Shown piece after piece: positions 31,242 to 57,612 of a DNA stretch of 64,000 nt. Position numbers and translations under genes: made by a program. The DNA is taken from the NCBI GenBank assembly GCA_030390025.1, contig JASTWF010000334.1, positions 372,001 through 436,000 of the forward strand, written 5' to 3'. A model generated the notes under the pieces. The model made no database searches and had not been told where the DNA came from. It saw only the letters and a list, made by a program, of their open reading frames with translations. The stretch is from Squalus acanthias. Lineage: Eukaryota. Each line of letters opens with the position of its first letter. Position 1 is the stretch's first letter.

Positions 31242-31382
31242 CTGTACTGCCAAGCACTGGCCCCAGGCGGGCATCTTGTCTCCATTCACTCGGATATACA
31301 GAACATGTTCATTGGAGAGGTGATAAATGAAATAGACCCAACAGATTCTCCGGCTTGGATCGGTTTGAATGACTTATACAAG
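31242..31382 (+). CDS. C-type lectin domain gene, internal exon A (141 nt, phase 0/0): LYCQALAPGGHLVSIHSDIQNMFIGEVINEIDPTDSPAWIGLNDLYK
   Basis: T-rich acceptor ...ttttatttaaag| and donor |gtaacg. Open frame with CTLD helix-1 Cys, HLVSIHS and WIGLND motifs. Confidence 0.93.
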
Positions 31383-31404
31383 GTAACGTTGTCTGAGTTG
31401 TTAG

Positions 31405-33464
31405 AATAGAATCATAGAATCTTACAGCACATAATGAGGCATTCAGCCCATCATACCTGTGCCAGCTGTTTGAAAGAGCTGTCCAATTTAGTCCCACACG
31501 CCATAACCCTGCAAATTAGTCCTCTTCAAGTACATGTCCAATTTTGAAAGTTCATATGGAATCTGACTCCACCACCGTTCCAGATCTTAACAGCCCTTTG
31601 TGTGAAAAAATGTCTCCTCATTTCCCCCTAGTTATTTTGTCAATTATTTTAAATTAATGACCTTTGGTTACCGACCCACATGCCAGAAGAAACAGTTTCT
31701 CCCTACTCTCTCTATTAAAACCCCTCATAATTTTGAATACCTCTATTAGGTCTCCCCTTAACCTGCTCTGCTCTAAGGAGAAGAATCCCTGCTTCTCCAA
31801 TCTCTCCACATAACTAAACTCCATGATAAACCTCCTCTGTACCCTCTCCAGGGCCTTGATATCCTTCCTTAAAGTTTAGCGCCCTGAATTGCCCACAATA
31901 ATCCAACTGAGGCCTAACCAGAGATTTGTAAAGGTTTAGCATGACTTCCTTGTTTTTGTATTCAATGCCCCTATTTACAAAGCCACGCATCCCATACGCT
32001 TTCTTAACTGCCTCATCAACCTGGCCTGCCACCTTCAAGTATTTGTGAAGATGCATCACCAGATCCTTCTGTTCTTCCACCCCCCTCAAAATAACACCGT
32101 TTAGATTATACTGCTCCTCCACGTTGTTTCACCCAAAGTGCATCACTCACACTTATCCGCATTAAATTGCACCTGCCATGTGTCTGCATACTTCTCTCCA
32201 GTCAGAAAAACATTGGTTCACCTCTACTCTCTGCCTCATATCCCTTAGCCAAATTTGTACCCAATCTACCATTGTCCCTTTAACATCATGTGCTTCTATT
32301 TTCGGAGTAAGTTTGATATGAAGTACTTTATCAAGAGACTTTTGAAAGTCCATATATATATCTACTGCACTACCTTCATCAACCCTCTATCACTTCATCA
32401 AAGAAGTCAATCAGGTTAGTCAGACACGATTTTCCTTTAACAAATCCTTGCTGGCTGTCCCTTATTCAACCATGTATTCTCCAAGTGAGAATTAATTTTA
32501 TCCTTGATAGTCTCTAGTAGTTTTCCCACCACTGATGTTAGACTGATTGGCCTGCAGTTACGAGGTTTGTCTCTCTCTTCTTTTTTGAACAGGGTTGTAA
32601 CATTTGCAATCCTCCAGTCCTCTGGCAGCACTCCATTATCCAAGGAGGATTGAAAGGTTGTGATCAGAGCTTACGCTATCTTCATCCTAGCTTCCCTCAG
32701 CAACCTAGGATGCATCTCATCTGGACCGGGTGACTTGTTAACTTTGAGTGATGCCAACTTATTTACCACCTTCTTGCTATCCATTTTTATCCTCTTCAAT
32801 ATCTCTACTGCCCCCTCCTCAACTCTGACATTAACTTTATTCTGTTCTTTTATGAAGTCTGATGCAAAGTACTCATTCAGTACCTCAGTCATGCCCTCTG
32901 CCTCCACAGGAAGATTTCCTTTTATGTCCCGAATTGGCCCCACCATTCCTTTAACTATTCTTTTACATTTTATATGTTTATAAAAGATTTTTTGGGTTCC
33001 CATTTATGTTACCCACTAATCTTTTCTCATACTCTCTCTTTGCCCTTCTTATATCCTTTTCCAATTTCCCCCTGCTCTCTCTGTATTCTGCCTGGTTTTC
33101 GACTGTATTCTGTACCTGACATTTTTCATAAACCTTTTTCTGTTTTATTTTAGCCTCTATTTACTTTGTCACCCAGGGAGCTCTAGTTTTGGATGCCCCA
33201 TCTTACCTCCTTATGAGAAGATGCTTGGTTTGTACCCGAACTTTCTCTGCCTTGAAGGCCTGACATTGCTCATTTACTGTTTTCCTGCACAATCTTTGTT
33301 TCCAGTCCACCTGTGCCAGATCCCTTCTCAAATCACTGAAATTGTTTCTCTTTCATTGTGTATTTTCACCTTTGATTTTTCTTTGTCCCATTCCATAACT
33401 ACTTTAAACCTAATAATATTATGATCACTATTACCCAGATGTTCTCCCACTGAAACATACTCCA
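31405..33464 (-). mobile_element. Old CR1 ORF2, continuing at ~35555-35785 and ~43395-43620 around younger insertions
   Basis: ORF2 peptides 31814-33003, EN peptide 35555-35746, (atagaatc)n tail. Confidence 0.85.
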
Positions 33465-35480
33465 CGGATTGTAAACTATTGTAAAAACCCATCTGGTTCA
33501 CTAATGTCCTTTAGGGAAGGAAATCTGCCATCCTTACCTGGTCTGTATGTGACTCCAGACCCACAGCAATGTGGTTGACTGTTAACTGCCCTCTGTTGTA
33601 CACTCAGTTGTACACACCCGCTACGAAAAACAATGTGAATGAAATCGGACGGATCACCCGGCATCGAACATGGCACCGGCTTCGGACACAATAATGGCAC
33701 ACCCAGCCCAGTCGACCCTGCAAAGTCCTCCTCACTAACATCTGGGGACTTGTGCCAAAATTGGGAGATCTGTCCCACAGACGAATCAAGCAACAGCCTG
33801 ACATGGTCATACTTACAGAATCATACCTTTCAGCCAATGTCCCAGATTCCTCCATCACCATCCCTGGGTATGTCCTATCCCACCAGCAGGACAGACCCAC
33901 CAGAGGTGGTGACACAGTCGGGACTGAGTGGCCTTGGGAGTCCTCAACATTGACTCCAGACCCCATGAAGTCTTCATGGGTTCAGGTCAAGCATGGGCAA
34001 GGAAACCTCCTGCTGATTACCACCTACCGCCCTCCCTCAGCTGATGAATCAGTACTCCTCCATGTTGAACACCACTTGGAAGAAGTACTGAGGGTAGCAA
34101 GGGCACAGAATGTACTCTGGGTGGTGAACTTCAATGTGCATTACAAGAGTGGCTCGGTAGCACCACTACTGACTGAGCTGGCCAAGTCCTAGGACTACGG
34201 CAGGTGGTGAGAGAACCAACACGAGGGAAAAACCTACTTGATCTCGTCCTCACCAATCTACCTGTCGCAGATGCATCTGTCCATGACAGCATTGGTAGCA
34301 GTGACCACAGCACAGTCCTGACCTCATTACAGCCTTGATCCAAACATGGACAAAGGAGCTGAATTCCAGAGGTGAGATGAGAGTGAGTGCCCTAGACATC
34401 AAGGCAGCATTAGACCGAGTGTGGCATCAAGGAGCCCTCGTAAAACTGAAGTCAATGAGAATCAGGGGAAAATTCTCCACTGGCTGGAGTCATACCGAGC
34501 ACAAAGGAAGATGGTTGTAGTTGTTGGAGGTCAATCATCACAGCCCCAGGACATCGCTGCAGGAGTTCCTCAGGGCAGTGTCCTAGGTCCAATGCTTCAT
34601 CAATGACCTTCCCTCCATCATAAGGTCAGAAGTGGGGATGTTCGCTGATGATTGCACAGTGTTCAGTTCCATTCGCAACTTTTCAGATAATGAAGCAGTC
34701 CATGCCCAAATGCAGCAAGGTCTGGATGACATTCAGGCTTGGGTTGATAAGTGGCAAGTAATATTCGCGCCACACAAGTGCCAGGCAATGACTATCTCCA
34801 ACAAGCAAGAATCTAACCACTGCCCCTTGACATTCAACGGCATTACCATCGCCAAATTCCCCACCATTAGCATCCTGGGGGTCATCGTTGACCAGAAACT
34901 TAACTGGATCAGCCACATAAATACTGTGGCCACAATAGCAGGTCAGAGGCTGGGTATTCTGTGGTGAGTGTCTCACCTCCTGACTCCCCAAAGCCTTTCC
35001 ACCATCTACAAAGCACAAGTAAGGAATGTGATGGAATACTCTCCACTTGCCTGGATGAGTGCAGCTCCAACAACACTCAAGAAGCTCGACAGCATCCAGG
35101 ACAAAGCAGCCGTTTGATTGGCACCCCATCCACCACCTTAAACATTCACTCCCTGCACCACTGGCGCACCGTGTCTGCAGTGTGTACCATCTACAAGATG
35201 CACTGCAGCAACTCGCCAAGGCTTCTTCGGCAGCACCTCCCTAACCCGTGACCTCTTCCACCTAGCAGGACAAGGGCAGCAGGCTCATGGGAACACCATC
35301 ACCTGTAAGTTCCCCTCCAAGTTACACACCATCCTGACAGCACTGTGGGAGGACCTTCACCACGCGGACTGCAACGGTTCAAGAAGGCGGTTCACCACCA
35401 CCTTCTCAAGGGCAATTAGGGTTGGGCAATAAATGCTCACCTTGCCAGCAACACCCACATCCCAGGAATGAAGTAAAAAT
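33465..35480 (+). mobile_element. CR1-group LINE of a second family (family B), internally deleted, with a SINE-core sequence at its 5' end
   Basis: EN (PDMVILTESYL, YRPP), RT (ALDIKAA.DRVWH, GVPQGSVLGP, MFADD), and a tail shared with ~1030-1190 and 60075-60240. Confidence 0.88.
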
Positions 35481-36330
35481 TATTCAGCATCATTCTTTGT
35501 TGGGTTGCAACATACTGATTAAGAAAGTTCTCCAGCACACATTTTAGGAATTCTTTACCTTCCTTGCCCTTTACTCTGTTTCCCACCACAGTCTAAATTA
35601 GGGTAATTGAAGTCCACTACTATTACTGCTCTGTTATTTTTATATTTCTCTGAAATTTGCCTATAGATTTGCTCCTCTATCTCCTTCTCACTATTTGGGT
35701 GTCTATAGTAAACATCCAGCAATCCAACAGCTTTTTTTCTATTCATTAACTCTAATCAAATATATTCTGTCTTTGAACCCTCTAGTATAGAAACATAGAA
35801 ACATAGAAAATAGTTGTGGTCACTGGTACCACAGGCAGATAATTCCATCCAGGATATCCCGGCTAGAAACATAGAAACATAGAAACATAGAAAATAGGTG
35901 CAGGAGTAGACCATTCGGTCCTTCGAGCCTGCACCGCCATTCAATGCGTTCATGGCTGAACATGCTACCTCAGTACCCCATTCCTGCTTTCTTGCCATAC
36001 CCCTTGATCCCCCTAGTTGTGAGTATTATATCTAACTCCCTTTTGAATATATTTAGCGAACTGGCCTCAACAACCTTCTGTGGTAGAGAATTCCACAGAT
36101 TCACCACTCTCTGGGTGAAGAAGTTCCTCCTCATCTCAGTCTTAAATGGCTTCCCCTTTATCCTTAGACTGTGACCCCTGGTTTTAGTTTTCCCTAACAT
36201 TGGAAACATTCTGCCCGCATCTAATTTGTCTAAACCAGTCAGGATTTTAAACGTCTCTATAAGATCCCCCCTCATTCTTCTGAACTCCAGAGGATACAAG
36301 TTCAGTTGATCCAGTCTTTCTTGATATGAT

Positions 36331-36774
36331 GGGCAACACGGTGGCATTGTGGTTAGCACTGGTGCCTCACAGCGCCAGAGACCCGGGTTCGAATCTGACC
36401 TCGGGTGACTGTCTGTGTGGAGTTTGCACATTCTCCCCGTGTCTGCGTGGGTTTCCTCCGGGTGCTCCGGTTTCCTCCCACAGTCCAAAAATGTGTGGGT
36501 TAGGTTGATTTGGCTATGATAAATTGACCCTTAGTGTTAGGGGGGATTAAATATGTGGGGTTATGGGGATAGGATGGGATATGTTCGGGGGAATTAAATA
36601 CGTGGGGTTACGGCGGTAGGGTGGGATATGTGTACTGTGGGGATTAAAGCAGGGACAGGGTACTGGATTTGGATGATCAGCCATGATCGTATTGAATGGC
36701 GGAGCAGGCTCGACGGGCCGAATGGCCTACTCCTGCTCCTAGATTCTATGTTTCTATGTTTCTATGTTTCTATG
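36331..36774 (+). mobile_element. tRNA-derived V-SINE (HE1-like) with CR1-derived 3' tail
   Basis: A box TGGCATTGTGG, B box GGTTCGAATC, V-domain ctgtgtggagtttgcacattctccccgtgtctgcgtgggtttcctccggg. Tail homologous to the CR1 3' UTR plus (TTTCTATG)n. The empty site is visible in copy 1 (cttgatatgtcag at ~6255). Confidence 0.93.
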
Positions 36775-39398
36775 TCAGACTGGCCATCCCAGGAATCAAT
36801 CTAGTGAACCTTCGTTGCACTCCCTCAATAGCAAGAATGTCCTTCCTCAAGTTAGGAGACCAAAACTGCACACAATACTCCAGGTGTGGCCTCACCAAGG
36901 CCCTGTACAACTGTAGCATCACCTCCCTACTCCTGTACTCAAATCCCCTTGCTATGAAGGCCATCATGCCATTTGCTTTCTTGACTGCCTGCTGCACTTG
37001 CCTTCCCACCTTCAGTGACTGATGTACCATGACGCCCAGGTCTCGTTGCACCTCCCCTTTCCCTAATCTGCCACCATTCAGGTAATAGTCTGCCTCCCGA
37101 TTTTTACCACCAAAGTGGATAACCTCACATTTATCCACATTGTACTTCATCTGCCATACATTTGCCCATTCACCCAACCTGTCCAAGTCACTCTGTAGCC
37201 TCCTAGCATCCTCCTCATTGTTCACACTGCCTCCCAATTTAGTGTCATCCGCAAATGTGGAGATATTACAATTAATCCCTTCGTCCAAATCATTAATATA
37301 TAATGTAAACAGCTCGGGCCCCAGCACCGAACCCTGCAGTACCCCGCTGGTCACTGCCTGCCATTCTGAAAAGTACCCATTTACTCCTACTCTTTGTTTC
37401 CTGTGTGCCAACCAGTTCTCAATCCACGTCAACACATTACCCCCAATCCCATGTGCTTTAACTTTGCACACCAATCTCTTGTGTGGGACCTTGTCGAAGG
37501 CCTTCTGAAAGTTCAAATACACCACATCTACTGGTTCCCCCCCGTCCACCCTATTGGAAACATCCTCAAAAAATTCCAGAAGATTTGTCAAGCATGATTT
37601 CCCTTTCACAAATCCATGCTGACTTGGACCTATCATGTCGCCACTTTCCAAATGGTCTGTTATGACATCTTTAATAATTGATTCCATCATTTTACCCACC
37701 ACCGATGTCAGGCTGACCGGTCTATAATTCCCTGCTTTCTCCCTCCCTCCTTTTTTAAAAAGAGGGTTTACATTAGCCACCCTCCACTCCTTCGGAACTG
37801 ATCCAGAGTCTAAGGAATGTTGGAAAATGATCGTCAATGCATCCACTATTTCCAAGGCCACCTCCTTAAGTACTCTGGGATGCAGACCATCAGGCCCTGG
37901 GGATTTATCAGCCTTCAGTCCCATCAATTTCCCCAACACCTTTTCCCGACTGATAAGGATTTCCCTCAGCTCCTCCCTCTTACCAGATCCTTTGATCTCT
38001 TTTATTTCCGGAAGGTTGTTTGTGTCCTCCACAGTAAACACCGAACCAAAGTACTTGTTCAATTGATCTGCCATTTCTTTGTTCCACATTATGACTTCCC
38101 CTGTTTCTGACTGCAGGGGACCTACGTTTGTTTTTACTAACCACTTTCTTTTTACATATTTATAGAAGCTTTTGCAGTCCATTTTAATGTTCTCCGCAAG
38201 CTTCCTTTCATATTTTATTTTCCCTGCCCTAATCAAACCCTTCGTCCTCCTCTGCTGAGTTTTAAAGTTCTCCCAGTCCCCGGGTTTGCTGCTACTTCTG
38301 GCCAATTTGTATGCCACTTCCTTGCTTTTAATACTATCCCTGATTTCCCTTGTTAGCCATGGTTGAGCACCTTCCCTTTTTTATTTTTACGCCAGACAGG
38401 GATGTACAATTGCTGTAGTTCATCCATGCGATCTCTAAATGTCTGCCATTGCCCTTCCACTGATAACCCCTTAAATATCGCTTGCCAATCTAACCTCGCC
38501 AATTCACGCCTCATACCCTCAAAGTTGCCCTTATTTAAGTTCTGGACCATGGTCTCTGAATTAACTGTTTCCTTCTCCATCCTAATGTAGAACTCCACCA
38601 TACTATGATCACTCTTCCCCAAGGGGCCTCGCACCACAAGATTGCTGATTAGTCCTTCCTCATTACACAACACCCAGTCCAGGATGGCCTCCCCTCTAGT
38701 TTGTTCCTCAACATATTAGTTTAGGAAACCATCCCTTAAACACTCCAGGAAATCCTCCTCCACCGTATTGCTTCCAGTTTGAGTAGCCCAATCTATATGC
38801 ATATTAAAGTCACCCATGATAACTGCTGCGCCTTTTTTGCATGCACCTCTGATTTCCTGTTTCATACCCTCCCCCACCTCACTACTACTGTTTGGAGGTC
38901 TGTACACAACCCCCACTAACGTATTCTGCCCTTTGGTGTTCTGCAGCTCAACCCATATTGATTCCACATCCTCCAAGCTAATGTCCTTCCTAGCTATTGC
39001 ATTAATCTCCTTTTTAACCAGCAATGCTACCCCACCCCCTTTTCCTTTTATTCTATCCTTCCTGAATGTTGAATACCCCTGGATATTCAGTTCCCAGCCT
39101 TGATTGTTCTGGAGCCACGTCTCTGTAATCCCAATCACATCATATCCGTTAACATCAATTTGCACAGTCAATTCATCCACCTTATTACGGATACTCCTTG
39201 CATTAAGACACAGAGCCTTTAGGCTTGTTTTATTAACACCCTTTGTCCTTTTAGACTTATGATTTAGTATGGCCCTTTGTGTTTCTTGCCTTTGTTTACT
39301 CGGATTTCCCTTATTGTTTCTCACCCTTCTAACATTTGTTTCTGACTGCATATTACTTCCCCCTGTTTCGCTACATAGGTTCCCATTGCCCTGCCATA

Positions 39399-40343
39399 TT
39401 AGTTTAAATCCTCCCGAACTGCCTTAGCAAATATTACCCCGAGGACATCGGTTCCAGTCCTGCCCAAGTGCAGACCGTCCCTTTTGTACAGGTCCCACTT
39501 CCCCCAGAACTGGTTCCAATGCCTCAGGTATTTGAATCCCTCCCTCCTGCACCACTGCTCAAGCCACGTATTTAATCTTGCTATCCTGTTCATGCTACTC
39601 TGATTAGCACGTGGCACTGGTAGCAACCCAGAGATTACTACCTTTGAGGTCCTACTTTTCAATTTAGCTCCTAGCTCCCTAAATTCTGCTTGTAGGTCCT
39701 CTTCCCGCTTTTTACCTATATCGTTGGTACCTACATGCACCACGACAGCTGGCTCTTCACCTGCCCTTTCCAGAATGTTCTGCAGCCGCTCCGAGACATC
39801 CTTGACCCTTGCACCAGGGAGGCAACATACCATCCTGGAATCTCGGTTGCGGCCACAGAAACTCCTGTCTATTCCCCTTACAATTGAGTCCCCTATCACT
39901 ATAGCTCTACCATTCTTTTTCCCGCCCTGCTGTGCAGCAGAGCCAGCCATGGTGCCATGAACCTGGCTGCTGGTGCCTTCCCCTGGTAGGTCATTTCCCC
40001 CAACAGTATCCAAAACGGTATATCTGTTTTGGCGGGAGATGACCGCAGGGGACTCCTGCACTACCTTCCTGATATTGCCCTGCCTCTTGGTCACCCATTT
40101 ACTGTCTGACCTAGCCTTTACCTGCGGTGTGTTCAACTCACTAAATGAGTAATCCACAAAGTTCTCGGCATCGTGGATGCTCCAGAGTGAGTCCATCCGC
40201 AGCTCCAGTGCCGCCATGCGGTCCGTCAGGAGCTGCAGCTGGACGCACTTCCTGCACACATAGTTGTCAGGGACACTGGAAGTGTCCCTGATTTCCCACA
40301 TAGCACAGGAGGAGCATGACACGGTTCCGAGATTTCCTGCCAT
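39399..40343 (-). CDS. CR1 ORF1 protein (zinc finger + SGNH/GDSL esterase-like), intact 314 aa
   Basis: CSSC...CRKC, VIGDSIV, HVGTND, DGLHL. Confidence 0.9.
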   Translation of the reverse strand: MAGNLGTVSCSSCAMWEIRDTSSVPDNYVCRKCVQLQLLTDRMAALELRMDSLWSIHDAENFVDYSFSELNTPQVKARSDSKWVTKRQGNIRKVVQESPAVISRQNRYTVLDTVGGNDLPGEGTSSQVHGTMAGSAAQQGGKKNGRAIVIGDSIVRGIDRSFCGRNRDSRMVCCLPGARVKDVSERLQNILERAGEEPAVVVHVGTNDIGKKREEDLQAEFRELGAKLKSRTSKVVISGLLPVPRANQSSMNRIARLNTWLEQWCRREGFKYLRHWNQFWGKWDLYKRDGLHLGRTGTDVLGVIFAKAVREDLN

Positions 40344-40777
40344 GACTTAACCCTTATATTACTTTATTAAGTTAAGTCCCTGAAAACAAAATATAAATCG
40401 AACCTACCTTTTAAATTCCCTCTACCCCTAAAGGTTAGAGGAGGTGGGAGGGTGGGAGACACTACTAGTGTTGTGTCTCGGGCTTAGCAACAGCTCCACC
40501 TATATACGGGTACCAATTAATTGGCCCCGCCCTCTGACTTTGACCCCTGCTGATTGATTAGAAAACTGGTTTCCACTGCCTGCTGTGCCAATTTACCGCT
40601 ACTGCAGTGTAACCTTGTTTTACTCTTCTTAAACCAACAGAATCCCAAATAGTTAACTTTTCCCCTTCACTTAAACTGCTTAAGTACTCTTATCAAGAAT
40701 GATTTAAAGAGAACTAACAATTCAAGAACTACTCCCACTTACCCAAACTCACAGCACTCTCTGCTGACTTGCACTGT

Positions 40778-43390
40778 ACATAAGGACATATGAAATAGGA
40801 GTAGGAATAGGCTATACGGCACCTGAAGCCTGCTCTGCCATTCAGTAAGATAATGGCTGAACTTCAACATCAACTCCACTTTCCCACCCTATCCCCATAT
40901 CCCTTGATTCCATTAGTGCCCAAAAATCTATCGGTCTCAATCTTGAATATACTCATCAACTGAGCATCCAGAGACCTCTGGAGTAGAGAATACCAAAGAT
41001 ACACAACCTCTGAGTGAAGAAATGGCTCCTCATCTCAGTCCTAAATGGCCAACCCCTTATCCTGAGACTGTGACCCCTAGTTCTAGAATCTCCAGTTTGG
41101 GGAAACAGCCTCTCAGCATCTACCCAGTCAAGCCCTCTGAGAATTTTATATGTTTCAATGATATCACCTCGCATTCTTCTAAAGTACAGAGAATATAGGT
41201 TCATTCTACTCAATCTCTCCTCATAGTATAGCCCTCTCATCCCAGCTATCAATTTAGTGAACCTTCATTGCACCTTCTCTAAGGCAAGTATCTTCCTTAG
41301 GTAAAGAGTCCAAAAATGTGCACAGTACTCCAGCTCTGGTCTCAGCAAAGCCCTATATTATTACAGCAAGACTTCTTTACTCTTCTACTTCAATGCCCTT
41401 GCAATAAAGGCTAACATACCATTTGCCTTCCTAATTGCTTGCTGTACCTGCATGTTAACTTTTTGTGATTCGTATAAAATGACACCTTGTATAGCTCAGA
41501 GTACCCTCTGAATACCAACACATATTGTTCACTCACCTTTAAAAAATATTCTGCTTTTCCATTCTTCTTACCAATGTGGATAATTTCTCATTTCCTCACA
41601 TTATACTCCATCTGCCACCTTCTTGCCCAATCAATTAACCTGTCTATATCCCTTTGCAGCCTCTTTGTGTCCTCCTCACAGCTTACTTTCCCACCTAGCT
41701 TTGTATCATCAGCAAACATGGATACATTACACTCGGTACCCTCATCTACGTCATTGATACAGATTGTAAATAGCTGAGGCCCAAGCCACTGATCCTTGCT
41801 GCACCCCACTAGTTACAACTTGTCAACCCGGAAATAACCTGTTTATTCCTACTCTCTATTTTCTGTCCATTAACCAATCCTCAATCCATGCCAATATATT
41901 ACCCGAATCCCATGAGCCCTAATCTTGTGTAACAATCTCTTGTGTGGCACCTTATCAAATGCATTTTGAAATTCCAGATATACTACATCCACTGGTTTCC
42001 CCTTATCTACCCTGCTAATTACACCCTCAAAACCTTGTCAGTAGATTTGTCAAACACGATACACGATTTCCCTTTCATGAAACCGTGTTGACTCTGTCTA
42101 ATCATTTTTCAAGTGGCCTGTTGCCACGTCCTTAATAATAGATTCTAACATTTTTCTTACTACTGATGTCAGGCTGACTGGTCTATAGTTCTCTGTTTTC
42201 TCTTTCCCTCCTTTCTTGAACAGCGAGGTTACACTTCCTACCTTCCAATCCGCAGGAACTGTTCTAGAATCTAGGGAATTTTGAAAGATCAAAAACAATG
42301 CATCCACTATCTCTAATACTATCTCTTTTAAAACACCAGGATTTAGGCCATCAGGTCCAGGAGATTTGTTGGCTTTTGTCCCATTAATTTCTCCAGTAAT
42401 TTTTCTTTACTAATATTAATTACTTTACGTTCCTCACTCTCATTAGATCCTAGGTTTTCCATAATTTCTGTTATGTTCTTTGTGTCTTCTAATGTGAAGA
42501 CAGATACAAAGTATATATTTAATGTCGCTGCCATTTCCTTTCTCCCCATTATAATTTCTTGTGTCTCTGCCTCTAATTGACCCATGTTTACTTTCGATAA
42601 TCTCTTCCTCTTTACTGATTACTAATTAACCCTGTCTCATTACACAATACTAGATCTAAAATAACCCGTTCTTTAGTTGGTTCCTCGACATACTGTTCTA
42701 GAAAACTTTCTCAAATGCATTCCATGAACTTCTCCTCCAAGCTACTTCTGCCAATTTGTTTTGCCCAGTCTATAGGAAGGTCAAAGTCCCCCATGATTAT
42801 TGCATTACCCTTGTTACAGGCTTCTCTAATTTCCTGATTTATACTCTGTCCAACACTATGATTAATGTTAGGAGGCCTATAAATTACTCCCACCAATGTT
42901 TTCTGCCTTTTGTTATTTCTTTGCTCCACCTATACTGATTCTCCATCATGATTTTCTGGGCTAAAATCCTTTCTCACTCCTGCCTTTATCTCATCCTTTA
43001 TTATCAGGGCGACCCCATCTCCTTTTCCATTTTGCCTATCTTTTTTGAAACTCAAGTACCCTGGAATATTTAGATCCCAACTTTGGTCATCCTGCAACCA
43101 CGTCTCAGTAATGGCTACTAGATCAAACCCATTTACCTCTATTTGTGCCATTAATTCATCTATCTTGTTACGAATGCTTTGTGCATTCAGATATAGCGCC
43201 TTTAATTTTAACTTGTTACTATTTTTCCCTGAGTTAGTTGCTAATACCCTGTTACCATTGTTAAACTCTTCCTGACGCAATCTGCTTGATCTTACCCAAA
43301 TCGCTAATCTGCTCTTCAGACTTGACTTTTCTTTTCGGATGCATAAATTTATCCTTACCTGACCCCTCCCTTCCCCTTATTAGTTTAAAG
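40778..43390 (-). mobile_element. Older degenerate CR1 ORF2 with internal deletion
   Basis: Fragmented EN and RT peptides 40956-43280 and an (acataaga)-type tail. Confidence 0.9.
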
Positions 43391-43667
43391 CCCTGTAGGA
43401 CTGTAATATTATTCTTGATCAATATTCTTGCCATCACCCCTCTATCCCTCCTGAATACATTTTAGCCAGGAATGTTTAGTTCCCATTCCTGCCCATGTTT
43501 AAGCCCGTCTCCATTATAGCCACTATATCATAACCCCATGTGGCAACTCGCGCCTGTAGCTTGTTAACCTTATTTGGAACACTCCTTGCATTAACACACA
43601 TGCATTTCAACATCATGCTAGTCTGCTTTGCTTTTTATCTCCATTTATTTCCGCAGCATAACAAATA

Positions 43668-44320: not shown

Positions 44321-44399
44321 ATTGTACACTATTCTTTGTCCTGTTGCTGTTTGTCCCTCCTAGTTTTCTATGCACCTTGTCTCTCCTCTCTGCTGCTGT

Positions 44400-45200: not shown

Positions 45201-45340
45201 CTATGTTAGTTAACACATATTTCAAATTGCTTTTAGCTTTAAGGCTATTTAACTTTTTAGATCACATTGGCTTTATCTCAAATTGTTTATTGTAGCAGAA
45301 ATATGCATTTTTAAATGATAGCATTATTTCTCTCCCACAG

Positions 45341-47642: not shown

Positions 47643-48151
47643 TGATGTAAGAAAACTATTAGGCACTTGGTCTAAGCATCAAACAAAGCTTTAATCAACT
47701 GTTTTACAACATGGAGGTCCAGTTGTGTCCTTTAATTGTTCCTGTTAAGAATATTCTGCGCAAGCTGGGCCTCTATCTGTCCAAAAATGTGCGGGTTAGG
47801 TTGATTTGGCTATGATAAATTGACCCTTAGTGTTAGGGGGGGATTAAATATGTGGGGTTATGGGGATAGGATGGGATATGTTAGGGGGAATTAAATACGT
47901 GGGGTTACGGGGGTCGGGTGGGATATGTGTACTGTGGGGATTAAAGCAGGGACAGGGTACTGGATTTGAATGATCAGCCATGATCGTATTGAATGGTGGT
48001 GCAGGCTCGACGGGCCGAATGGCCTACTCCTGCTCCTAGATTCAATGTTTCTATCTATGTTTCTATTTATACGCTCCCTTGATAGTGCCACCCGCAGGCC
48101 ACTCAGTATTATTTCACAAGTCTTTCTTTCATGACTTACAGAGTGCTGTCA
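47643..48151 (-). mobile_element. Small solo LTR (~225 bp net) interrupted by a 5'-truncated HE1-like SINE (+, ~47779-48066)
   Basis: On the minus strand it reads TGACAG...GTATAAATAG[SINE]AGGCCC...ATTAAA...ACATCA. Flanks GGGTG/GTGTG fit a 5-bp TSD with one mismatch. The SINE part matches 36482-36774. Confidence 0.7.
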
Positions 48152-48730
48152 GTGTGTTACACTGTAGATAGAGGAAGGTACACTGAGTGTAAAACTGCAG
48201 ATAGAGGAAAGTACACTGGATGTAACACTGTAGATAGAGGAACCTACACTGGGTGTAACACTGCAGATAGAGGAACGTACACTGGGTGTAACAGTGTAGA
48301 TAGAGGAACGTACACTGTGTCTAACATTGCAGATAGAAGAACGTACACTGGGTGTAACACTGTAGATAGAGGAACGTACACTGGGTGTAACACTGCAGAT
48401 AGAGGAATGTACACTGAGTGTAACACTGTAGATAGAGGAACGTACACTGGGTGTAACACTGCAGGTAGAGGAACGTACACTGGGTGTAACACTGCAGATA
48501 GAGGAACATACACTGAGTGTAACACTGCAGATAGAGGAACATACACTGAGTGTAACACTGTAGAAAGAGGAACATTCACTGGGTGTAACACTGTAGATAG
48601 AGGAACGTACACTGGGTGTAACACTGTAGAAAGAGGAACGTACACTGGGTGTAGCACTGCAGATAGGGGAACGTACACTGGGTGTGATACTCCAGTTAGG
48701 GGAACGTACACTGGGAGTAACACTGCAGAC

Positions 48731-50186
48731 TGTAGGGGGTGGTGTGTGGGGGTCAGGTTTACCTCTGACTCTGTGAGCGGTTCGAATCGCTCCCATGCCC
48801 CTGGTTCTAGACCTTGGATTTATTTGGGGGTTGTGAACAAAGATGCAGTAGAGATCAGGTTTTGATGAAAGACTTTTGACTTTTATTCAAGAAAAGGTAA
48901 CAAACTTAAAACACACTTAATGCTTAAACACAGGTTGGGGAACACACGGTACAGGCGAGGGAGAAGAACCATATACAAAAAAAAACCTTATCCCTCCCAA
49001 ATCCCACTGCCTAGCTAGGTTTGATTCGAGAAGATCAGGGATAATGCTCACCAAATGACAGTTCTTGACAGTTAAGAGTTAGGGTTTAGAGTCTTTTGAG
49101 TAAAAGATTTCGTAAGGCCCTTTTTGCCGCGAGGTTTCCGATGGTCACTGAGGCGGTCGCTCTGGTCTCTTGAACTGCTGGCTTTCTTTGTTGTATTTCT
49201 TTCTGTTGAACTCTGCCTCTGTTTAAACTGTCTTCTTCCGAGCTGTGGAACTGCCTTCTTGCAGAACTGTGGAACTCCTTGCTGCTTCTTCCTTGCTTCT
49301 CCTGAACTCTGTAACTCCAGCCCTGACTTCTGCTGAAAACAGGCTTTTCGATTGAACTGCAGAACTGCCTTCTGTTGAACTTGAACTGTTTTTACTGTCT
49401 GATGGGCCTTCAATTATACTAAATTGAAGTGGCCTTATCTACCCCAAATCAAATCCCGATCATTGTAAGACCTCGTTAACAGCAACGACTTTACTAGCGT
49501 GTTAACTGGTTTTGTAAATGTGTGAAGTGGTTTCCGGATAGCTCCATCCTGTCGATCTGTTGTTTAATCGGAGTTTGAATTGTCCTCATGTTTTGGGTTT
49601 CTTGACTGGGCCTAGGGCTTCTATCTTTCTGCATGTCTTTAATGGGTTCTGTAAGTGTCAAATGTTTTTTTTTGGAATGGTTTGCATCCTGTCAATCTTC
49701 TTGGCTAATTGGTTTTTGATGGGATGATGGGCTGTGAAGCTGTGTACTGGACGTTTTATTGTTAGGAATTCTGTTTCGACCTGGGGATTTCAAAAGGGTC
49801 TTGGTTTATTCATTTTTTTGGATGTGTTTGTGAGGTTTGGGGTGAGGCTCTTCCTCCTTGGTTGGATTGCAGTGCAAACATCTCCCAGACAGCTTGGCTC
49901 GGTCCCAAAAATCAAAAGCTGTCCATTGCCTCACCACACCCTTTCCTGCAGCCTGTGTTTCTGTGACTGCAGGTTTACCCAATGGCCCTTTTAAAAAGGT
50001 GTCTTATCATCAAAAAGTCATTTTCCTCAGGGTTTTTCTTCCCTGATCGTTAAAAATGTCCAAAACTGAGGTTTTGACCTCAAATTCCTTCATTTAGGCA
50101 CCATCATTCCAAATTCGTGTTGAGATCCAAAACTAACGCCCTTTAGGGTTCTATTCGAGATTCTGGGGGATTTTACGAAGCCTACA
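48731..50186 (-). mobile_element. Solo LTR-like element, family Y (1456 bp), copy 1
   Basis: TGTAGG...CCTACA inverted termini. AATAAA on the minus strand at ~48882-48887. Flanked by duplicated (A)GAC. Confidence 0.75.
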
Positions 50187-52796
50187 GACGGAGGAACGTA
50201 CACTGGGTGAAACACTGTAGCTAGAGGAACGTATACTGGGAGTAACAGTGCAGTTAGAGAAACGTACACTGGGTGTAACACTACAGATAGAGGAACGTAC
50301 ACAGGGTGTAACACAATAGATAGAGTAACATACACTGGCTGTAACACTGTAGATAGAGGACCGTACACTGGGTGAAACACTGTAGATAGAGGACCGTACA
50401 CTGGCTGTAACACTGCAGATAGAAGAACGTACACTGGGTGTAAGACTGTAGATAGAGGACCGTACACTGGGCGTAACACTGCAGTTAGAGGAACGTACAC
50501 TGGGTTTAACACTGTAGATAGAGGAACGTACACTGGGAGTAACACAGTAGTTAGAGGAACGTAAACTGGGTGTAACACTGTAGATAGAGGAACATACACT
50601 GGGTGTAACACTGTAGATAGAGGAACGTACACTGTGTGTAACACTGCAGAAAGAGGAATGAACACTGGGTGTAACACTGTAGATAGAAGAACGTACACTC
50701 GGTGGAACACTGTAGATTGAGGAAAGTACACTGGGTGTAACACTGTAGATAGGGGAACGTACACTGGGTGTTACACTGTAGATAGAGGAAAGTACACTGG
50801 GTGTAACACTGTAGATAGGGGAACATACACTGGGTGTTACACTGTAGATAGAGGAAAGTACACTGGGTGTAACACTGCAGATAGAGGAACGTAAACTGGG
50901 TGTAATACTGCAGATAGAGGAACGTACACTGGGTGTAACACTGCAGATAGAGGAACGTACACTGGGTGTAACACTGCAGATAGAGGAACGTACACTGGGT
51001 GTAACACTGCAGATAGAGGAACGTACACTGGGTGTAACACTGTAGATACAGGAATGTACACTGGGTGTAACACTGTAGATACAGGAATGTACACTGGGTG
51101 TAACACTGTAGATACAGGAATGTACACTGGGTGTAACACTGTAGATACAGGAATGTACACTGGGTGTAACACTGTAGATACAGGAACGTACACTGGGTGC
51201 AACACTGTAGATAGAGAAACGTACACTGGGTGTAACACTGTAGATAGAGGAACGTACACTGGGTGTAACAGTGTAGATAGAGGAACGTACACTGGGTGTA
51301 ACACTGCAGATAGAGGAACGTACACTGGGTGTAACATTGTAGATAGAGGAACGTACACTGGGTGAAACACTGTAGATAGAGGAACGTACACTGGGTGTAA
51401 CACTGTAGATAGAGGAACGTACACTGGGTGTAACACTGCAGATAGAGGAACGTACACTGGGTGTAACACTGTAGATAGAGGAACGTACACTGGGTGTAAC
51501 ACTGTAGATAGAGGAACGTACACTGGGTGTAACACTGTAGATAGAGGAACGTACACTGGGTGTAACACTGCAGATAGAGGAACGTACACTGGGTGTAACA
51601 CTGTAGATAGAGGAACGTACACTGGGTGTAACACTGTTGATAGAGGAACGTACACTGGGTGTAACACTGCAGATAGAGGAACGTACACTGAGTGTAACAC
51701 TGTAGATAGAGGAACGTACACTGGGTGTAACACTGTAGATAGAGGAACGCACACTGGGTGTAACACTGTAGATAGAGGAATGTACACTGGGTGTAACACT
51801 GTTGATAGAGGAACGTACACTGGGTGTAACACTGCAGATAGAGGAACGTACACTGGGTGTAACACTGTAGATAGAGGAATGTACACTGGGTGTAACACTG
51901 TTGATAGAGGAACGTACACTGGGTGTAACACTGCAGATAGAGGAACGTACACTGGGTGTAACACTGCAGATAACGGAACGTACACTGGGTGTAACACTGT
52001 TGATAGAGGAACGTACACTGGGTGTAACACTGTAGATAGGGGAACGTACACTGGGTGTAACACTGTAGATAGGGGAACGTACACTGGGTGTAACATTGTA
52101 GATAGAGGAACGTACACTGGGTGTAACACTGCAGATAGAGGAACGTACATTGGGTGAAACACTGTAGACAGAGGAACGTACACTGGGTGTAACACTGCAG
52201 ATAGAGGAACGTACACTGGGTGTAACACTGCAGATAGAGGAACGTACACTGGGTGAAACACTGTAGACAGAGGAACGTACACTGGGTGTAATACTGCAGA
52301 TAGAGGAACGTACACTGGGTGTAACACTGCAGACAGAGGAACGTACACTGGGTGTAACACTGCAGACAGAGGAACGTACACTGGGTGTAACACTGTAGAT
52401 AGAGGAACGTACACTGGGTGTAACACTGTAGATAGAGGAACGTACACTCGGTGTAACACTGTTGATAGAGGAACGTACACTGGGTGAAACACTGTAGACA
52501 GAGGAACGTACACTGGGTGTAATACTGTAGACAGAGGAACGTACACTGGGTGTAACACTGCAGATAGAGCAACGTACACTGGGTGTAACACTGTAGACAG
52601 AGGAACGTACACTGGGTGTAACACTGTAGATAGAGGAACGTACACTGGGTGTAACACTGTAGATAGAGGAACGTACACTGGGTGTAACACTGTAGAAAGA
52701 GGAACGTACACTGGGTGTAGCACTGCAGATAGGGGAACGTACACTGGGTGTGATACTCCAGTTAGGGGAACGTACACTGGGAGTAACACTGCAGAC

Positions 52797-54252
52797 TGTA
52801 GGGGGTGGTGTGTGGGGGTCAGGTTTACCTCTGACTCTGTGAGCGGTTCGAATCGCTCCCATGCCCCTGGTTCTAGACCTTGGATTTATTTGGGGGTTGT
52901 GAACAAAGATGCAGTAGAGATCAGGTTTTGATGAAAGACTTTTGACTTTTATTCAAGAAAAGGTAACAAACTTAAAACACACTTAATGCTTAAACACAGG
53001 TTGGGGAACACACGGTACAGGCGAGGGAGAAGAACCATATACAAAAAAAAACCTTATCCCTCCCAAATCCCACTGCCTAGCTAGGTTTGATTCGAGAAGA
53101 TCAGGGATAATGCTCACCAAATGACAGTTCTTGACAGTTGAGAGTTAGGGTTTAGAGTCTTTTGAGTAAAAGATTTCGTAAGGCCCTTTTTGCCGCGAGG
53201 TTTCCGATGGTCACTGAGGCGGTCGCTCTGGTCTCTTGAACTGCTGGCTTTCTTTGTTGTATTTCTTTCTGTTGAACTCTGCCTCTGTTTAAACTGTCTT
53301 CTTCCGAGCTGTGGAACTGCCTTCTTGCAGAACTGTGGAACTCCTTGCTGCTTCTTCCTTGCTTCTCCTGAACTCTGTAACTCCAGCCCTGACTTCTGCT
53401 GAAAACAGGCTTTTCGATTGAACTGCAGAACTGCCTTCTGTTGAACTTGAACTGTTTTTACTGTCTGATGGGCCTTCAATTATACTAAATTGAAGTGGCC
53501 TTATCTACCCCAAATCAAATCCCGGTCATTGTAAGACCTCGTTAACAGCAACGACTTTACTAGCGTGTTAACTGGTTTTGTAAATGTGTGAAGTGGTTTC
53601 CGGATAGCTCCATCCTGTCGATCTGTTGTTTAATCGGAGTTTGAATTGTCCTCATGTTTTGGGTTTCTTGACTGGGCCTAGGGCTTCTATCTTTCTGCAT
53701 GTCTTTAATGGGTTCTGTAAGTGTCAAATGTTTTTTTTTGGGATGGTTTGCATCCTGTCAATCTTCTTGGCTAATTGGTTTTTGATGGGATGATGGGCTG
53801 TGAAGCTGTGTACTGGACGTTTTATTGTTAGGAATTCTGTTTCGACCTGGGGATTTCAAAAGGGTCTTGGTTTATTCATTTTTTTGGATGTGTTTGTGAG
53901 GTTTGGGGTGAGGCTCTTCCTCCTTGGTTGGATTGCAGTGCAAACATCTCCCAGACAGCTTGGCTCGGTCCCAAAAATCAAAAGCTGTCCACTGCCTCAC
54001 CACACCCTTTCCTGCAGCCTGTGTTTCTGTGAATGCAGGTTTACCCAATGGCCCTTTTAAAAAGGTGTCTTATCATCAAAAAGTCATTTTCCTCAGGGTT
54101 TTTCTTCCCTGATCGTTAAAAATGTCCAAAACTGAGGTTTTGACCTCAAATTCCTTCATTTAGGCACCATCATTCCAAATTCGTGTTGAGATCCAAAACT
54201 AACGCCCTTTAGGGTTCTATTCGAGATTCTGGGGGATTTTACGAAGCCTACA
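52797..54252 (-). mobile_element. Solo LTR-like element, family Y, copy 2 (offset 4066 bp)
   Basis: Near-identical to 48731-50186, with the same flanking minisatellite variants. Confidence 0.75.
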
Positions 54253-57200
54253 GACAGAGGAACGTACACTGGGTGAAACACTGTAGCTAGAGGAACGTAT
54301 ACTGGGAGTAACAGTGCAGTTAGAGAAACGTACACTGGGTGTAACACTACAGATAGAGGAACGTACACAGGGTGTAACACAATAGATAGAGTAACATACA
54401 CTGGCTGTAACACTGTAGATAGAGGAACGTACACTGGCTGTAACACTGTAGATAGAGGACCGTACACTGGGTGAAACACTGTAGATAGAGGACCGTACAC
54501 TGGCTGTAACACTGCAGATAGAAGAACGTACACTGGGTGTAAGACTGTAGATAGAGGACCGTACACTGGGTGTAACACTGCAGTTAGAGGAACGTACACT
54601 GGGTTTAACACTGTAGATAGAGGAACGTACACTGGGAGTCACACAGTAGATAGAGGAACGTAAACTGGGTGTAACACTGTAGATAGAGGAACATACACTG
54701 GGTGTAACACTGTAGATAGAGGAACGTACACTGTGTGTAACACTGCAGAAAGAGGAATGAACACTGGGTGTAACACTGTAGATAGGGGAACATACACTGG
54801 GTGTTACACTGTAGATAGAGGAAAGTACACTGGGTGTAACACTGCAGATAGAGGAACGTAAACTGGGTGTAACACTGCAGATAGAGGAACGTACACTGGG
54901 TGTAACACTGCAGATAGAGGAACGTACACTGGGTGTAACACTGTAGATAGGGGAACGTACACTGGGTGTTACACTGTAGATAGAGGAAAGTACACTGGGT
55001 GTAACACTGTAGATAGGGGAACATACACTGGGTGTTACACTGTAGATAGAGGAAAGTACACTGGGTGTAACACTGCAGATAGAGGAACGTAAACTGGGTG
55101 TAACACTGCAGATAGAGGAACGTACACTGGGTGTAACACTGCAGATAGAGGAACGTACACTGGGTGTAACACTGCAGATAGAGGAACGTAAACTGGGTGT
55201 AACACTGCAGATAGAGGAACGTACACTGGGTGTAACACTGTAGATACAGGAATGTACACTGGGTGTATCACTGCAGATAGAGGAATGTACACTGTGTGTT
55301 ACAGTGTAGATAGAGGACCGTACACTGGGTGTAACACTGCAGATAGAGGAACGTACACTGTGTGTAACACTGTAGATACAGGAATGTACACTGGGTGTAA
55401 CACTGTAGATACAGGAATGTACACTGGGTGTAACACTGTAGATACAGGAATGTACACTGGGTGTAACACTGTAGATAGAGAAACGTACACTGAGTGTAAC
55501 ACTGTAGATAGAGGAACGTACACTGGGTGTAACACTGCAGATAGAGGAACGTACACTGGGTGCAACACTGTAGATAGAGAAACGTACACTGGGTGTAACA
55601 CTGTAGATAGAGGAACGTACACTGGGTGTAACAGTGTAGATAGAGGAACGTACACTGGGTGTAACACTGCAGATAGAGGAACGTACACTGGGTGTAACAT
55701 TGTAGATAGAGGAACGTACACTGGGTGAAACACTGTAGATAGAGGAACGTACACTGGGTGTAACACTGTAGATAGAGGAACGTACACTGGGTGTAACACT
55801 GCAGATAGAGGAACGTACACTGGGTGTAACACTGTAGATAGAGGAACGTACACTGGGTGTAACACTGTAGATAGAGGAACGTACACTGGGTGTAACACTG
55901 TAGATAGAGGAACGTACACTGGGTGTAACACTGCAGATAGAGGAACGTACACTGGGTGTAACACTGTAGATAGAGGAACGTACACTGGGTGTAACACTGT
56001 TGATAGAGGAACGTACACTGGGTGTAACACTGCAGATAGAGGAACGTACACTGAGTGTAACACTGTAGATAGAGGAACGTACACTGGGTGTAACACTGTA
56101 GATAGAGGAACGCACACTGGGTGTAACACTGTAGATAGAGGAATGTACACTGGGTGTAACACTGTTGATAGAGGAACGTACACTGGGTGTAACACTGCAG
56201 ATAGAGGAACGTACACTGGGTGTAACACTGTAGATAGAGGAATGTACACTGGGTGTAACACTGTTGATAGAGGAACGTACACTGGGTGTAACACTGCAGA
56301 TAGAGGAACGTACACTGGGTGTAACACTGCAGATAACGGAACGTACACTGGGTGTAACACTGTTGATAGAGGAACGTACACTGGGTGTAACACTGTAGAT
56401 AGGGGAACGTACACTGGGTGTAACACTGTAGATAGGGGAACGTACACTGGGTGTAACATTGTAGATAGAGGAACGTACACTGGGTGTAACACTGCAGATA
56501 GAGGAACGTACATTGGGTGAAACACTGTAGACAGAGGAACGTACACTGGGTGTAACACTGCAGATAGAGGAACGTACACTGGGTGTAACACTGCAGATAG
56601 AGGAACGTACACTGGGTGAAACACTGTAGACAGAGGAACGTACACTGGGTGTAACACTGTTGATAGAGGAACGTACACTGGGTGAAACACTGTAGACAGA
56701 GGAACGTACACTGGGTGTAACACTGTAGACAGAGGAACGTACACTGGGTGTAACACTGCAGATAGAGCAACGTACACTGGGTGTAACACTGTAGAGAGAG
56801 GAACGTACACTGGGTGTAACACTGTAGATAGAGGAACGTACACTGGGTGTAACACTGTAGATAGAGGAACGTACACTGGGTGTAACACTGTAGATAGAGG
56901 AACGTACACTGGGTGTAACACTGTAGATAGAAGAACGTACACTGGGTGTAACACTGTAGATAGAGGAACGTACACTGGGTGTAACACTGTAGATAGAGGA
57001 ACGTACACTGGGTGTAACACTGTAGATAGAGGAACGTACACTGGATGTAACACTGTAGACAGAGGAACGTACACTGGGTGTAACACTGCAGTTACAGGTC
57101 TGGAGCAGTGTTCCCAATGGGCTTCACTCTATTTGTACAACATTCACCAGAATGTTATTCATCGTACTTGCCTCTAGCCCTCACTTTACTGATGGTCCAA

Positions 57201-57412
57201 ACGTCCCACCCTGTTTCCCAGAGTTAAAATGATATAATGTGGACACGACTAATGGATGGAGAGGCAGGTAACATGAATGGATCACAGACACTGACTCAGA
57301 CAGATTGCTCCTTTGCAAATATTTCTATTGAAAGAGAAAGGATGAAATAATTACACAAACAGCAGCCTGATGCACTGATGGGAAAGTTTGGATTCAATTC
57401 TTCTTTTTTCAG

Positions 57413-57486
57413 GTTTACCCACCAATTGGAATGATGCGCCCTGTGATTTTCAATATCCTTACCTCTGCTCCTACAAACTCCACTGA
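57413..57486 (+). CDS. C-type lectin domain gene, terminal coding exon C: (G)LPTNWNDAPCDFQYPYLCSYKLH*
   Basis: Acceptor ttcttttttcag|. The phase-1 join with exon B completes GGT. Contains WND..C......LC and ends at TGA 57484-57486. Confidence 0.93.
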
Positions 57487-57606
57487 AGTGAGAAGACTCT
57501 GCCGATGCTCCACGGATCCTTTCCAGGAGTGGATTCAGTGCCTCGATTTGTTTGTAGCCGCAGTCACTGCCTGTGGTGACTGGACTGACTTAGTCTCTCA
57601 GCCAAT

Positions 57607-57612
57607 AATAAA
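57607..57612 (+). promoter_or_regulatory. Polyadenylation signal AATAAA of the lectin gene
   Basis: About 120 nt after the stop codon, followed by GT-rich sequence (tgtgtgtttg). Confidence 0.75.

What the first reader, a model, noticed from the sequence alone, without database searches (positions are those of the whole stretch)
31242..57612. Hidden multi-exon EPN-type C-type lectin gene spread across TE-filled introns
Seen: three short exons with canonical splice sites and compatible phases give LYCQALAPGGHLVSIHSDIQNMFIGEVINEIDPTDSPAWIGLNDLYK-ERTYLWVDGTKYDFRKWNVGEPNNACDKGEDCARTNSG-LPTNWNDAPCDFQYPYLCSYKLH*, with introns of ~14 and ~12 kb. Known: EPN + E + WND supply all Ca2+ site-2 ligands and typify mannose/GlcNAc/fucose binding. 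The exon layout and short C-terminus resemble free-CTLD lectins (REG, fish and snake lectins). Inference: a secreted innate-immune lectin whose 5' exons lie upstream of the window.
Basis: partly seen in the sequence, partly recalled or inferred. Interest (0 to 1): 0.72.

Follow-up and report, generated by a model that had tools for sequence, protein, structure and literature searches.

The report
Shark lectin gene with dead exon
Three short exons spread over 26 kb join into the intact back two-thirds of a cartilaginous-fish C-type lectin domain, likely part of a secreted sugar-binding defence protein of an ordinary kind, and a broken duplicate of the first exon lies 19 kb upstream and differs from it more than the flanking intron does.

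Summary
Confirmed. Exons 31242-31382, 45341-45452 and 57413-57486 have AG/GT ends and phases 0/0/1. They give a stop-free 108-aa C-type lectin segment with EPN, EDC and WND, followed by a poly(A) signal. It is 54-55% identical, without gaps, to horn-shark single-domain lectins and groups with them. These relatives start with a hydrophobic leader, so secretion is inferred. The 5' exons are not in the window. Expression was not tested.

The two exon copies differ at 28 of 141 bases, against 73 of 663 in the co-duplicated intron (p=0.007). The live copy changed only variable residues, mostly on one face of helix 2. This suggests diversifying selection, but dN/dS (1.45) is not significantly above 1.

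Corrections: intron 2 is mainly a 33-bp minisatellite, not transposons, and REG orthology is untested. The extra cysteine after EPN is absent from 47 of 47 relatives.

Verdict: a new member of a known kind; modest interest.

The parts
31242..31382 (+). Exon A (phase 0/0, 47 codons): end of helix 1 with Cys C1, helix 2, WIGL strand
   Evidence: helix assignment by proxy model of P0008
45341..45452 (+). Exon B (phase 0/1): long loop with EPN, an extra Cys, and EDC
57413..57486 (+). Exon C coding part: WND, last two Cys, stop
57607..57612 (+). AATAAA poly(A) signal 121 nt after the stop, followed by a GT-rich stretch
12397..13213 (+). Dead duplicate of exon A (exon bases 12397-12479 and 13156-13213): acceptor AG kept, donor GT lost (TT), TGA at the invariant Trp of WIGL, interrupted by a transposon
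12480..13152 (.). 673-bp non-autonomous DNA-transposon-like insertion: imperfect 13-bp inverted ends, GAT target duplication; carries an in-frame stop at 12493 and a perfect donor AAG|GTAAGT at 12806
12331..14042 (+). Upstream copy of the duplicated block (66 nt of upstream intron, exon, about 830 nt of downstream repeat-derived intron)
31176..32187 (+). Downstream copy of the duplicated block, holding the intact exon A
31383..45340 (+). Intron A-B, 13,958 nt, largely LINE and SINE fragments incl. a young LINE at 35813-40311 on the minus strand
45671..57088 (.). 33-bp minisatellite (344 copies) filling intron B-C, with a near-identical 4,066-bp higher-order duplication

Best explanation
These exons are the intact last three coding exons of a cartilaginous-fish single-domain C-type lectin gene that is likely still functional, with its leader and first lectin exons presumably upstream of the window, and whose product is predicted to be secreted and to bind mannose/GlcNAc/fucose-type sugars through one calcium ion, likely on microbes at skin or other mucosal surfaces. 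Shown: exon structure, open frame, poly(A) signal, kinship with horn-shark lectins, EPN + EDC + WND motifs. Inferred: upstream exons, expression, signal peptide, possible cleavage at an LEKR-type pro-site as in many relatives, sugar specificity, a defence role, and an inter-chain disulfide through the unpaired loop cysteine. Exon A and about 1 kb around it were duplicated in tandem. The upstream copy died (transposon, stop, donor loss) and is now likely skipped inside the long preceding intron. The surviving copy kept the structural core but changed the variable face of helix 2 and the following loop faster than the intron changed, which suggests diversifying selection on a protein-contact surface away from the sugar site (inferred).
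For: Stop-free 108-aa frame with five canonical splice dinucleotides. A crude simulation of neutral decay at half the flank divergence leaves such a gene intact in 3.6% of runs. 54.6%, 53.7% and 53.7% identity over 108 aa, no gaps, to Heterodontus francisci P0155, P0156, P0008, the best 3 of 48 compared. They form a 6-row clade (95/84) with two whale-shark proteins in a 45-row tree. Family gene models break at the same places: P0157 lacks exactly the exon-A segment, P0052 departs after it, P0023 ends at the end of exon B. The window gene keeps 22 of 24 columns that are at least 80% conserved in 39 chondrichthyan rows (members' median 96%). [quoted passage not shown] Duplicate: exon 28/141 differences against intron 79/850 (p 6e-4) or, leaving out the most similar 187 nt, 73/663 (p 0.007). 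First and second codon positions differ at 16/60 in variable columns (p 6e-4) but 4/34 in conserved columns (p 0.52). Of 19 amino-acid differences, 9 polarise to the dead copy (5 in conserved columns, incl. the stop), 7 to the live copy (0 in conserved columns), 3 unresolved. In helix 2 (residues 95-108 of the P0008 model), 6 of 7 live-derived or unresolved changes fall in a 120-degree arc, while the 2 dead-copy changes fall on the opposite face.
Against: No transcript evidence could be obtained and no upstream exon was seen. The N-terminal lectin exon is absent from the 31 kb upstream (best E 0.29, against 21 of 22 held-out relatives at E 2.8e-8 or better), and no genome is held to look further. 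dN/dS between the two exon copies is 1.45 but not different from 1 (p 0.62), and synonymous sites (5/33) do not differ from the intron (p 0.23). The 7 resolved live-copy changes alone are only weakly above neutral expectation (3.8 expected, p 0.09; p 0.006 if the 3 unresolved are added), and zero changes in conserved columns has p 0.12. The dead copy is also more diverged than the flank predicts, and flank divergence is uneven (about 11% over 600 nt, 3% over the last 187 nt), so gene conversion may have made the flank look young. Polarisation rests on outgroups only about 55% identical. The sugar motif is labile in this family (EPN in 12 of 47 rows, QPD in 14). The one C-type lectin from shark skin that my literature searches turned up is described in its title as binding a very broad range of sugars (title only).
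Confidence: 0.68

Rival explanations
1. An orphan 3' remnant or recent pseudogene: the last three exons survive intact but the 5' exons or promoter were lost, as happens in birth-and-death tandem clusters.
For: No 5' exon in the 31 kb upstream. Decay is proven at this locus by the dead copy. Long terminal branch, 0.61 against a median of 0.28. An unpaired Cys absent from 47 of 47 relatives could be a harmful change.
Against: Frame, five splice dinucleotides and poly(A) signal are intact (3.6% expected under neutral decay since the duplication). 22 of 24 conserved columns are kept, and live-copy changes avoid conserved columns. The other introns are 12-14 kb and the window holds only 12.4 kb upstream of the dead copy, so a long preceding intron is unremarkable.
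Confidence: 0.15
2. The two exon-A copies come from two whole tandem paralogous genes, both once functional, and a deletion removed the rest of the upstream gene and the 5' part of the downstream one. This left a chimeric gene: 5' exons of gene 1 spliced to exons A-C of gene 2.
For: The family is expanded on single chromosomes (at least 9 Heterodontus clusters list the same 75.3-Mb contig length). Both copies carry more amino-acid changes than neutral drift predicts, as expected of two live paralogues.
Against: Homology between the blocks is confined to about 66 nt upstream and 800 nt downstream of the exon. No second copy of exon B or C and no N-terminal exon lies between them. A single local duplication needs fewer events.
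Confidence: 0.12
3. A functional secreted C-type lectin-domain protein whose main job is not microbial sugar recognition but a protein or mineral contact (coagulation, egg case or matrix), as in lithostathine, eggshell proteins or snaclecs.
For: Nearest solved relatives of the family include lithostathine, snake lectins and struthiocalcin. Fast change sits on helix 2, not at the sugar site. The title of the bullhead-shark lectin paper mentions blood coagulation.
Against: Both site-2 motifs and the EDC glutamate are kept. Snaclecs lack them (PMC6468738 passage) and group VII is said to have lost sugar binding (PMC514892 passage).
Confidence: 0.15
4. The excess exon divergence between the two copies is an artefact of a homogenised flank plus neutral decay of the dead copy, with no positive selection.
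For: dN/dS not significantly above 1; synonymous 5/33 and upstream intron 9/63 lie between the two rates; uneven flank divergence.
Against: The excess is confined to variable columns (16/60 against 4/34) and to one helix face. Only 3 of 28 differences are CpG transitions. Other copies of the flank repeat in the window are 66-79% identical, so the pair's similarity is not generic repeat similarity.
Confidence: 0.35

Closest known systems
Heterodontus francisci predicted single-CTLD lectins (P0155 'lectin-like', P0156 'lectin-like', P0008 = XP_067915850.1 'dromaiocalcin-1-like') and the wider shark family (Rhincodon, Heptranchias, Chiloscyllium, Hemiscyllium, Pristiophorus, Scyliorhinus)
   Same: 54-55% identity over 108 aa without gaps, same exon break points, same CSYKL-type C-terminus, same clade
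   Different: The window gene combines EPN with WND (P0155 EPN/WSD, P0008 EPD/WSD, P0156 QPD/WND), has an extra Cys in the long loop (0 of 47 relatives), a more acidic helix 2, and a dead duplicate of exon A. The names are automatic RefSeq labels, not tested functions.
Skin C-type lectin of the Japanese bullhead shark (Tsutsui et al., pmid 25433861)
   Same: [quoted passage not shown]
   Different: Paper not held: only its title and two citing sentences were seen, and its sequence was not compared, so kinship is a lead only
Group VII (REG/lithostathine), fish antifreeze-like soluble lectins and group XII CTLDs
   Same: Single free CTLD; PMC514892 section 31 says these three groups share intron positions and are hard to tell apart for intermediate sequences; lithostathine is the best single-domain PDB hit of P0155 (E 4e-19)
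   Different: Group VII is described there as having lost sugar binding, whereas this gene keeps the site. No REG sequence was in my tree, so orthology is untested. That REG introns fall at these same three places is recalled, not tested.
Snake venom sugar-binding lectins (BjcuL 5f2q, rattlesnake lectin 1jzn) and snaclecs
   Same: Top Foldseek matches of the P0008 model (E 7e-10, 8e-10; 32-34% identity); a long-loop Cys links subunits in viper lectins; accelerated evolution after duplication is reported for habu CTLPs (PMC6062510 passages)
   Different: The viper Cys lies N-terminal of the sugar site, here it lies just after EPN. Those lectins mostly bind galactose; snaclecs lack the Ca2+ motifs. 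Nothing here points to venom.

Membership tests
C-type lectin domain (Pfam PF00059), canonical long-loop form | Profile match to Lectin_C | tested here: met
   Exon A alone E 4e-4, 21.5 bits against a 22.6 cut-off; all 13 relatives carry PF00059 and the best align gap-free at 54-55%. The spliced peptide itself was not scanned against Pfam.
C-type lectin domain (Pfam PF00059), canonical long-loop form | Four core cysteines C1-C4 and the WIGL strand | tested here: met
   Cys at 3, 79, 95, 103 of the 108-aa part plus an extra one at 73; WIGL in exon A; definitions from PMC6468738 passages
Ca2+-dependent sugar-binding C-type lectins, mannose type | Site-2 ligands EPN and WND | tested here: met
   EPN at 68, EDC at 77, WND at 90; aligns with the EPNN..GEDC of CD23 variants. 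The role of the EDC glutamate as fifth ligand is recalled.
Ca2+-dependent sugar-binding C-type lectins, mannose type | Measured Ca2+-dependent binding of mannose/GlcNAc/fucose | not testable with these tools
   needs recombinant protein
Secreted single-CTLD shark lectins (Heterodontus P0155/P0156/P0008 clade) | Sequence clade and shared exon boundaries | tested here: met
   6-row clade 95/84; break points of P0157, P0052, P0023
Secreted single-CTLD shark lectins (Heterodontus P0155/P0156/P0008 clade) | Leader peptide, pro-segment (LEKR-type site in 12 of 25 relatives) and N-terminal CTLD exon | tested here: inconclusive
   Not in the window; flanking genome not held; LEKR count
Secreted single-CTLD shark lectins (Heterodontus P0155/P0156/P0008 clade) | No further domain after the CTLD | tested here: met
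   Stop 5 codons after the last Cys and AATAAA 121 nt later
Group VII (REG/lithostathine) | Orthology to REG genes by tree and synteny | not tested
   No REG rows in the tree; no neighbouring host gene seen in the window
Group VII (REG/lithostathine) | Loss of the carbohydrate-binding site, as described in PMC514892 | tested here: not met
   Site-2 motifs are intact against the passage
Snaclecs | E/Q-P-D/N absent and WND reduced to W-x-N, domain-swapping loop | tested here: not met
   EPN and WND present; definition

The most novel reading that the evidence does not exclude
Exon A and its duplicate were once mutually exclusive, in-frame (phase 0/0) alternative exons that let one shark lectin gene make two proteins with the same sugar site but different helix-2 surfaces under diversifying selection. 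A DNA transposon then killed one alternative but supplied a perfect new donor (12806) behind the surviving acceptor, turning it into a poison exon that tunes expression by nonsense-mediated decay.
Probability: 0.08. Interest if true: 0.6.

Novelty: new member of a known kind. Interest (0 to 1): 0.28.

Why it matters
The gene itself is ordinary: one more secreted-type C-type lectin of a family annotated automatically in many shark genomes under borrowed names ('dromaiocalcin-like', 'snaclec-like', 'lectin-like'). Six literature searches listed no paper describing this expanded shark family or selection on it, though most subscription papers, including the bullhead-shark lectin paper, are not in the library. 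The useful extra is the duplicate exon. It gives a built-in comparison in which coding sequence has diverged about twice as much as the co-duplicated intron, concentrated on one helix face. That is the kind of accelerated evolution reported for snake venom C-type lectin-like genes, here in a non-venom setting in a cartilaginous fish. If confirmed with orthologues it would mark helix 2 as a second, fast-changing recognition surface of shark innate lectins. It is also a practical warning for annotation: 327 coding bases in 26 kb, with a decoy exon upstream.

Tried and rejected
Expression: the run search for 57300-57700 gave 'no RNA holder listed' (20 rows, 8 studies, none on record as RNA). No read-laying result was obtained, so the splice junctions are untested by reads.

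No whole genome is held, so upstream exons and synteny could not be examined. The word-index protein search with exon A against longer proteins found nothing (2 candidates); the full HMMER search did. Most of its 150 hits are multi-CTLD proteins scored by summing repeats and were set aside; 11 short single-stretch hits were fetched. The top PDB hits of exon A to engineered TPR proteins are a repeat-summing artefact.

Motif searches for an upstream C..W..CY..W..A exon and profiles for the leader, pro-segment and N-terminal CTLD exon (best E 1.2, 2.8, 0.29) found none; only the last had a power control. Second copies of exons B and C: none.

Tree: P0157 was left out before aligning, and P0052, P0176, P0196 before tree building, as truncated or aberrant. 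The structure model is of the relative P0008, not of the window protein; its long-loop residues 122-136 are under pLDDT 50, so nothing structural is claimed about the extra Cys.

Earlier scan findings: 4 look-ups, none returned. PMC13188829 concerns Clec3a, and PMC3269628 and PMC8144736 gave nothing on this shark family in the passages shown. No supplements were read; gene lists in shark genome papers' supplements could mention this cluster.
Full report
Observation. Spliced, they give 108 codons and a stop, and AATAAA follows 121 nt later. Short AG..GT frames are common (47 of exon A's length on the + strand), so the test is homology. Profiles from 22 relatives, collected through exon A alone, find exon B at E 8e-13 and exon C at E 2e-9 in the window's six frames, in order and on the same strand. 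The best unrelated hits are E 0.73 and 0.057.

What it is. An HMMER search with exon A gave a handful of short single-domain hits that are RefSeq-predicted proteins of sharks, a ray and a chimaera; follow-up searches extended the set. The window therefore likely comes from a cartilaginous fish (inference; its organism was not identified). The spliced peptide is 54.6, 53.7 and 53.7% identical over all 108 residues to three Heterodontus francisci proteins, the best 3 of 48 compared. It sits with them and two whale-shark proteins in a clade of 95/84 support in a 45-row tree (four truncated or aberrant rows left out). These relatives are about 187 aa: hydrophobic leader, pro-segment ending in an LEKR-type site in 12 of 25 checked, then one CTLD. 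Aberrant family models break exactly at the window's exon boundaries (P0157, P0052, P0023). A model of P0008 matches snake sugar-binding lectins, CEL-I, struthiocalcin and lithostathine at E 1e-10 to 1e-8 order; by sequence, lithostathine is the best single-domain PDB hit of P0155.

Missing 5' part. The exon for the start of the domain is not in the window: best E 0.29, whereas 21 of 22 held-out relatives score E 2.8e-8 or better. Leader and pro-segment profiles also find nothing, without a power control. No genome is held, and no read-level test of expression was obtained.

Is it alive? Indirect evidence says probably. It keeps 22 of 24 highly conserved columns, all splice sites and the poly(A) signal. 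A crude simulation of neutral decay since the duplication described below leaves such a gene intact in 3.6% of runs. A recent loss of the 5' half cannot be excluded.

Likely mechanism. EPN, EDC and WND are present. [quoted passage not shown] Binding of mannose/GlcNAc/fucose-type sugars is therefore predicted, not shown. The motif varies widely in the family (EPN 12, QPD 14 of 47 rows). A bullhead-shark skin lectin is titled as binding a very broad range of sugars and inducing coagulation (pmid 25433861; title and citing sentences only; not held). A fifth cysteine three residues after EPN is found in none of 47 relatives; an inter-chain disulfide is a guess by analogy with viper lectins, whose linking cysteine lies elsewhere in the loop.

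At 12397-13213 lies a second copy of exon A, duplicated with about 66 nt of upstream and 800 nt of downstream intron. It is dead: a 673-bp element with imperfect 13-bp inverted ends and a GAT target duplication interrupts codon 28, the invariant Trp is a stop, and the donor reads TT. No second exon B or C exists in the window, so a local exon duplication inside one gene is the simplest reading. The two exon copies differ at 28 of 141 bases and 19 of 47 codons' residues, the co-duplicated intron at 79 of 850 (p 6e-4) or 73 of 663 when its most similar end is left out (p 0.007). The excess is in columns that vary across the family (16 of 60 first and second positions, p 6e-4) and not in conserved ones (4 of 34, p 0.52). 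With three horn-shark outgroups, 9 changes fall to the dead copy (5 in conserved columns), 7 to the live copy (none in conserved columns) and 3 are unresolved. Mapped on helix 2 of the P0008 model, 6 of 7 live or unresolved changes lie in one 120-degree arc and the two dead-copy changes on the opposite face; that this face is buried is inferred from its conserved hydrophobic residues.

Against over-reading. dN/dS is 1.45 but not different from 1 (p 0.62), synonymous sites are too few (5 of 33), the resolved live-copy changes alone give p 0.09, the dead copy is itself over-diverged, and flank divergence is uneven, so gene conversion could contribute. I put diversifying selection at roughly 60-65%. 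The inserted element carries one of only two perfect donor sites on the + strand of the window (12806) behind the copy's surviving acceptor, with an in-frame stop at 12493. Any inclusion would be a poison exon; nothing shows that it is used.

Introns. Intron A-B is mostly LINE and SINE fragments. Intron B-C is a 33-bp minisatellite of 344 copies over 11.4 kb with a 4,066-bp higher-order duplication whose non-array islands differ at 5 of 1,265 bases; this is recent or an assembly duplication.

Comparison and novelty. It meets the tests for a canonical sugar-site CTLD and for the shark single-CTLD clade, fails the snaclec definition, and is untested for REG orthology. PMC514892 section 31 (read in full) notes that groups VII, XII and fish antifreeze-like lectins share intron positions and are hard to separate. 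Accelerated evolution of duplicated C-type lectin-like genes is reported for habu venom (PMC6062510, passages). Six searches (listings only) showed no paper on this shark family's expansion or selection; subscription papers and supplements were not seen.

Verdict. A real, probably functional, ordinary gene: new member of a known kind, interest 0.28. The dead duplicate exon is a modest extra that makes selection on helix 2 testable.

Noticed in passing
window 5748-9800 and 35813-40311 (minus strand): Two copies of a young LINE, 98.6-99% identical over about 4 kb, with long endonuclease- and reverse-transcriptase-like frames (690 aa at 5905-7977); a recently active family.
   Followed up: no
window 45671-57088: 33-bp minisatellite, 344 copies, produces long spurious ORFs on both strands (up to 968 aa) that could mislead gene callers.
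   Followed up: partly
window about 48700-50190 and 52765-54257: A roughly 1.46-kb non-array island with inverted ends TGTAGG/CCTACA inside the minisatellite, solo-LTR-like, duplicated at a 4,066-bp offset at 99.6% identity; real recent duplication or assembly artefact.
   Followed up: partly
window 47624-48171: A third non-array island (about 550 nt) in the minisatellite, containing a 47-bp two-copy repeat also seen at 36535-36631.
   Followed up: no
window about 14640-18730 and further fragments to about 31170 and 61200-62700: GC-rich DNA-transposon-like sequence with a Harbinger-type nuclease-like frame (15087-15584, +) and a Myb/SANT-like frame (17767-18552, -); family label recalled, not tested.
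   Followed up: no
window 5-80 and 12763-12838: The 673-bp insertion in the dead exon shares a 76-nt stretch (76% identity, inverted) with an element at the window start, so its donor-like site may be a family trait.
   Followed up: partly
window about 24000-25000 and 28360-29330: Two inverted copies of an AT-rich repeat about 1 kb long flank a block upstream of exon A (seen by eye).
   Followed up: no
proteins P0157, P0052, P0023, P0162, P0173: Several RefSeq models of this family are truncated or skip an exon at the same boundaries; exon-A skipping in P0157 may be a real isoform or a prediction error.
   Followed up: no
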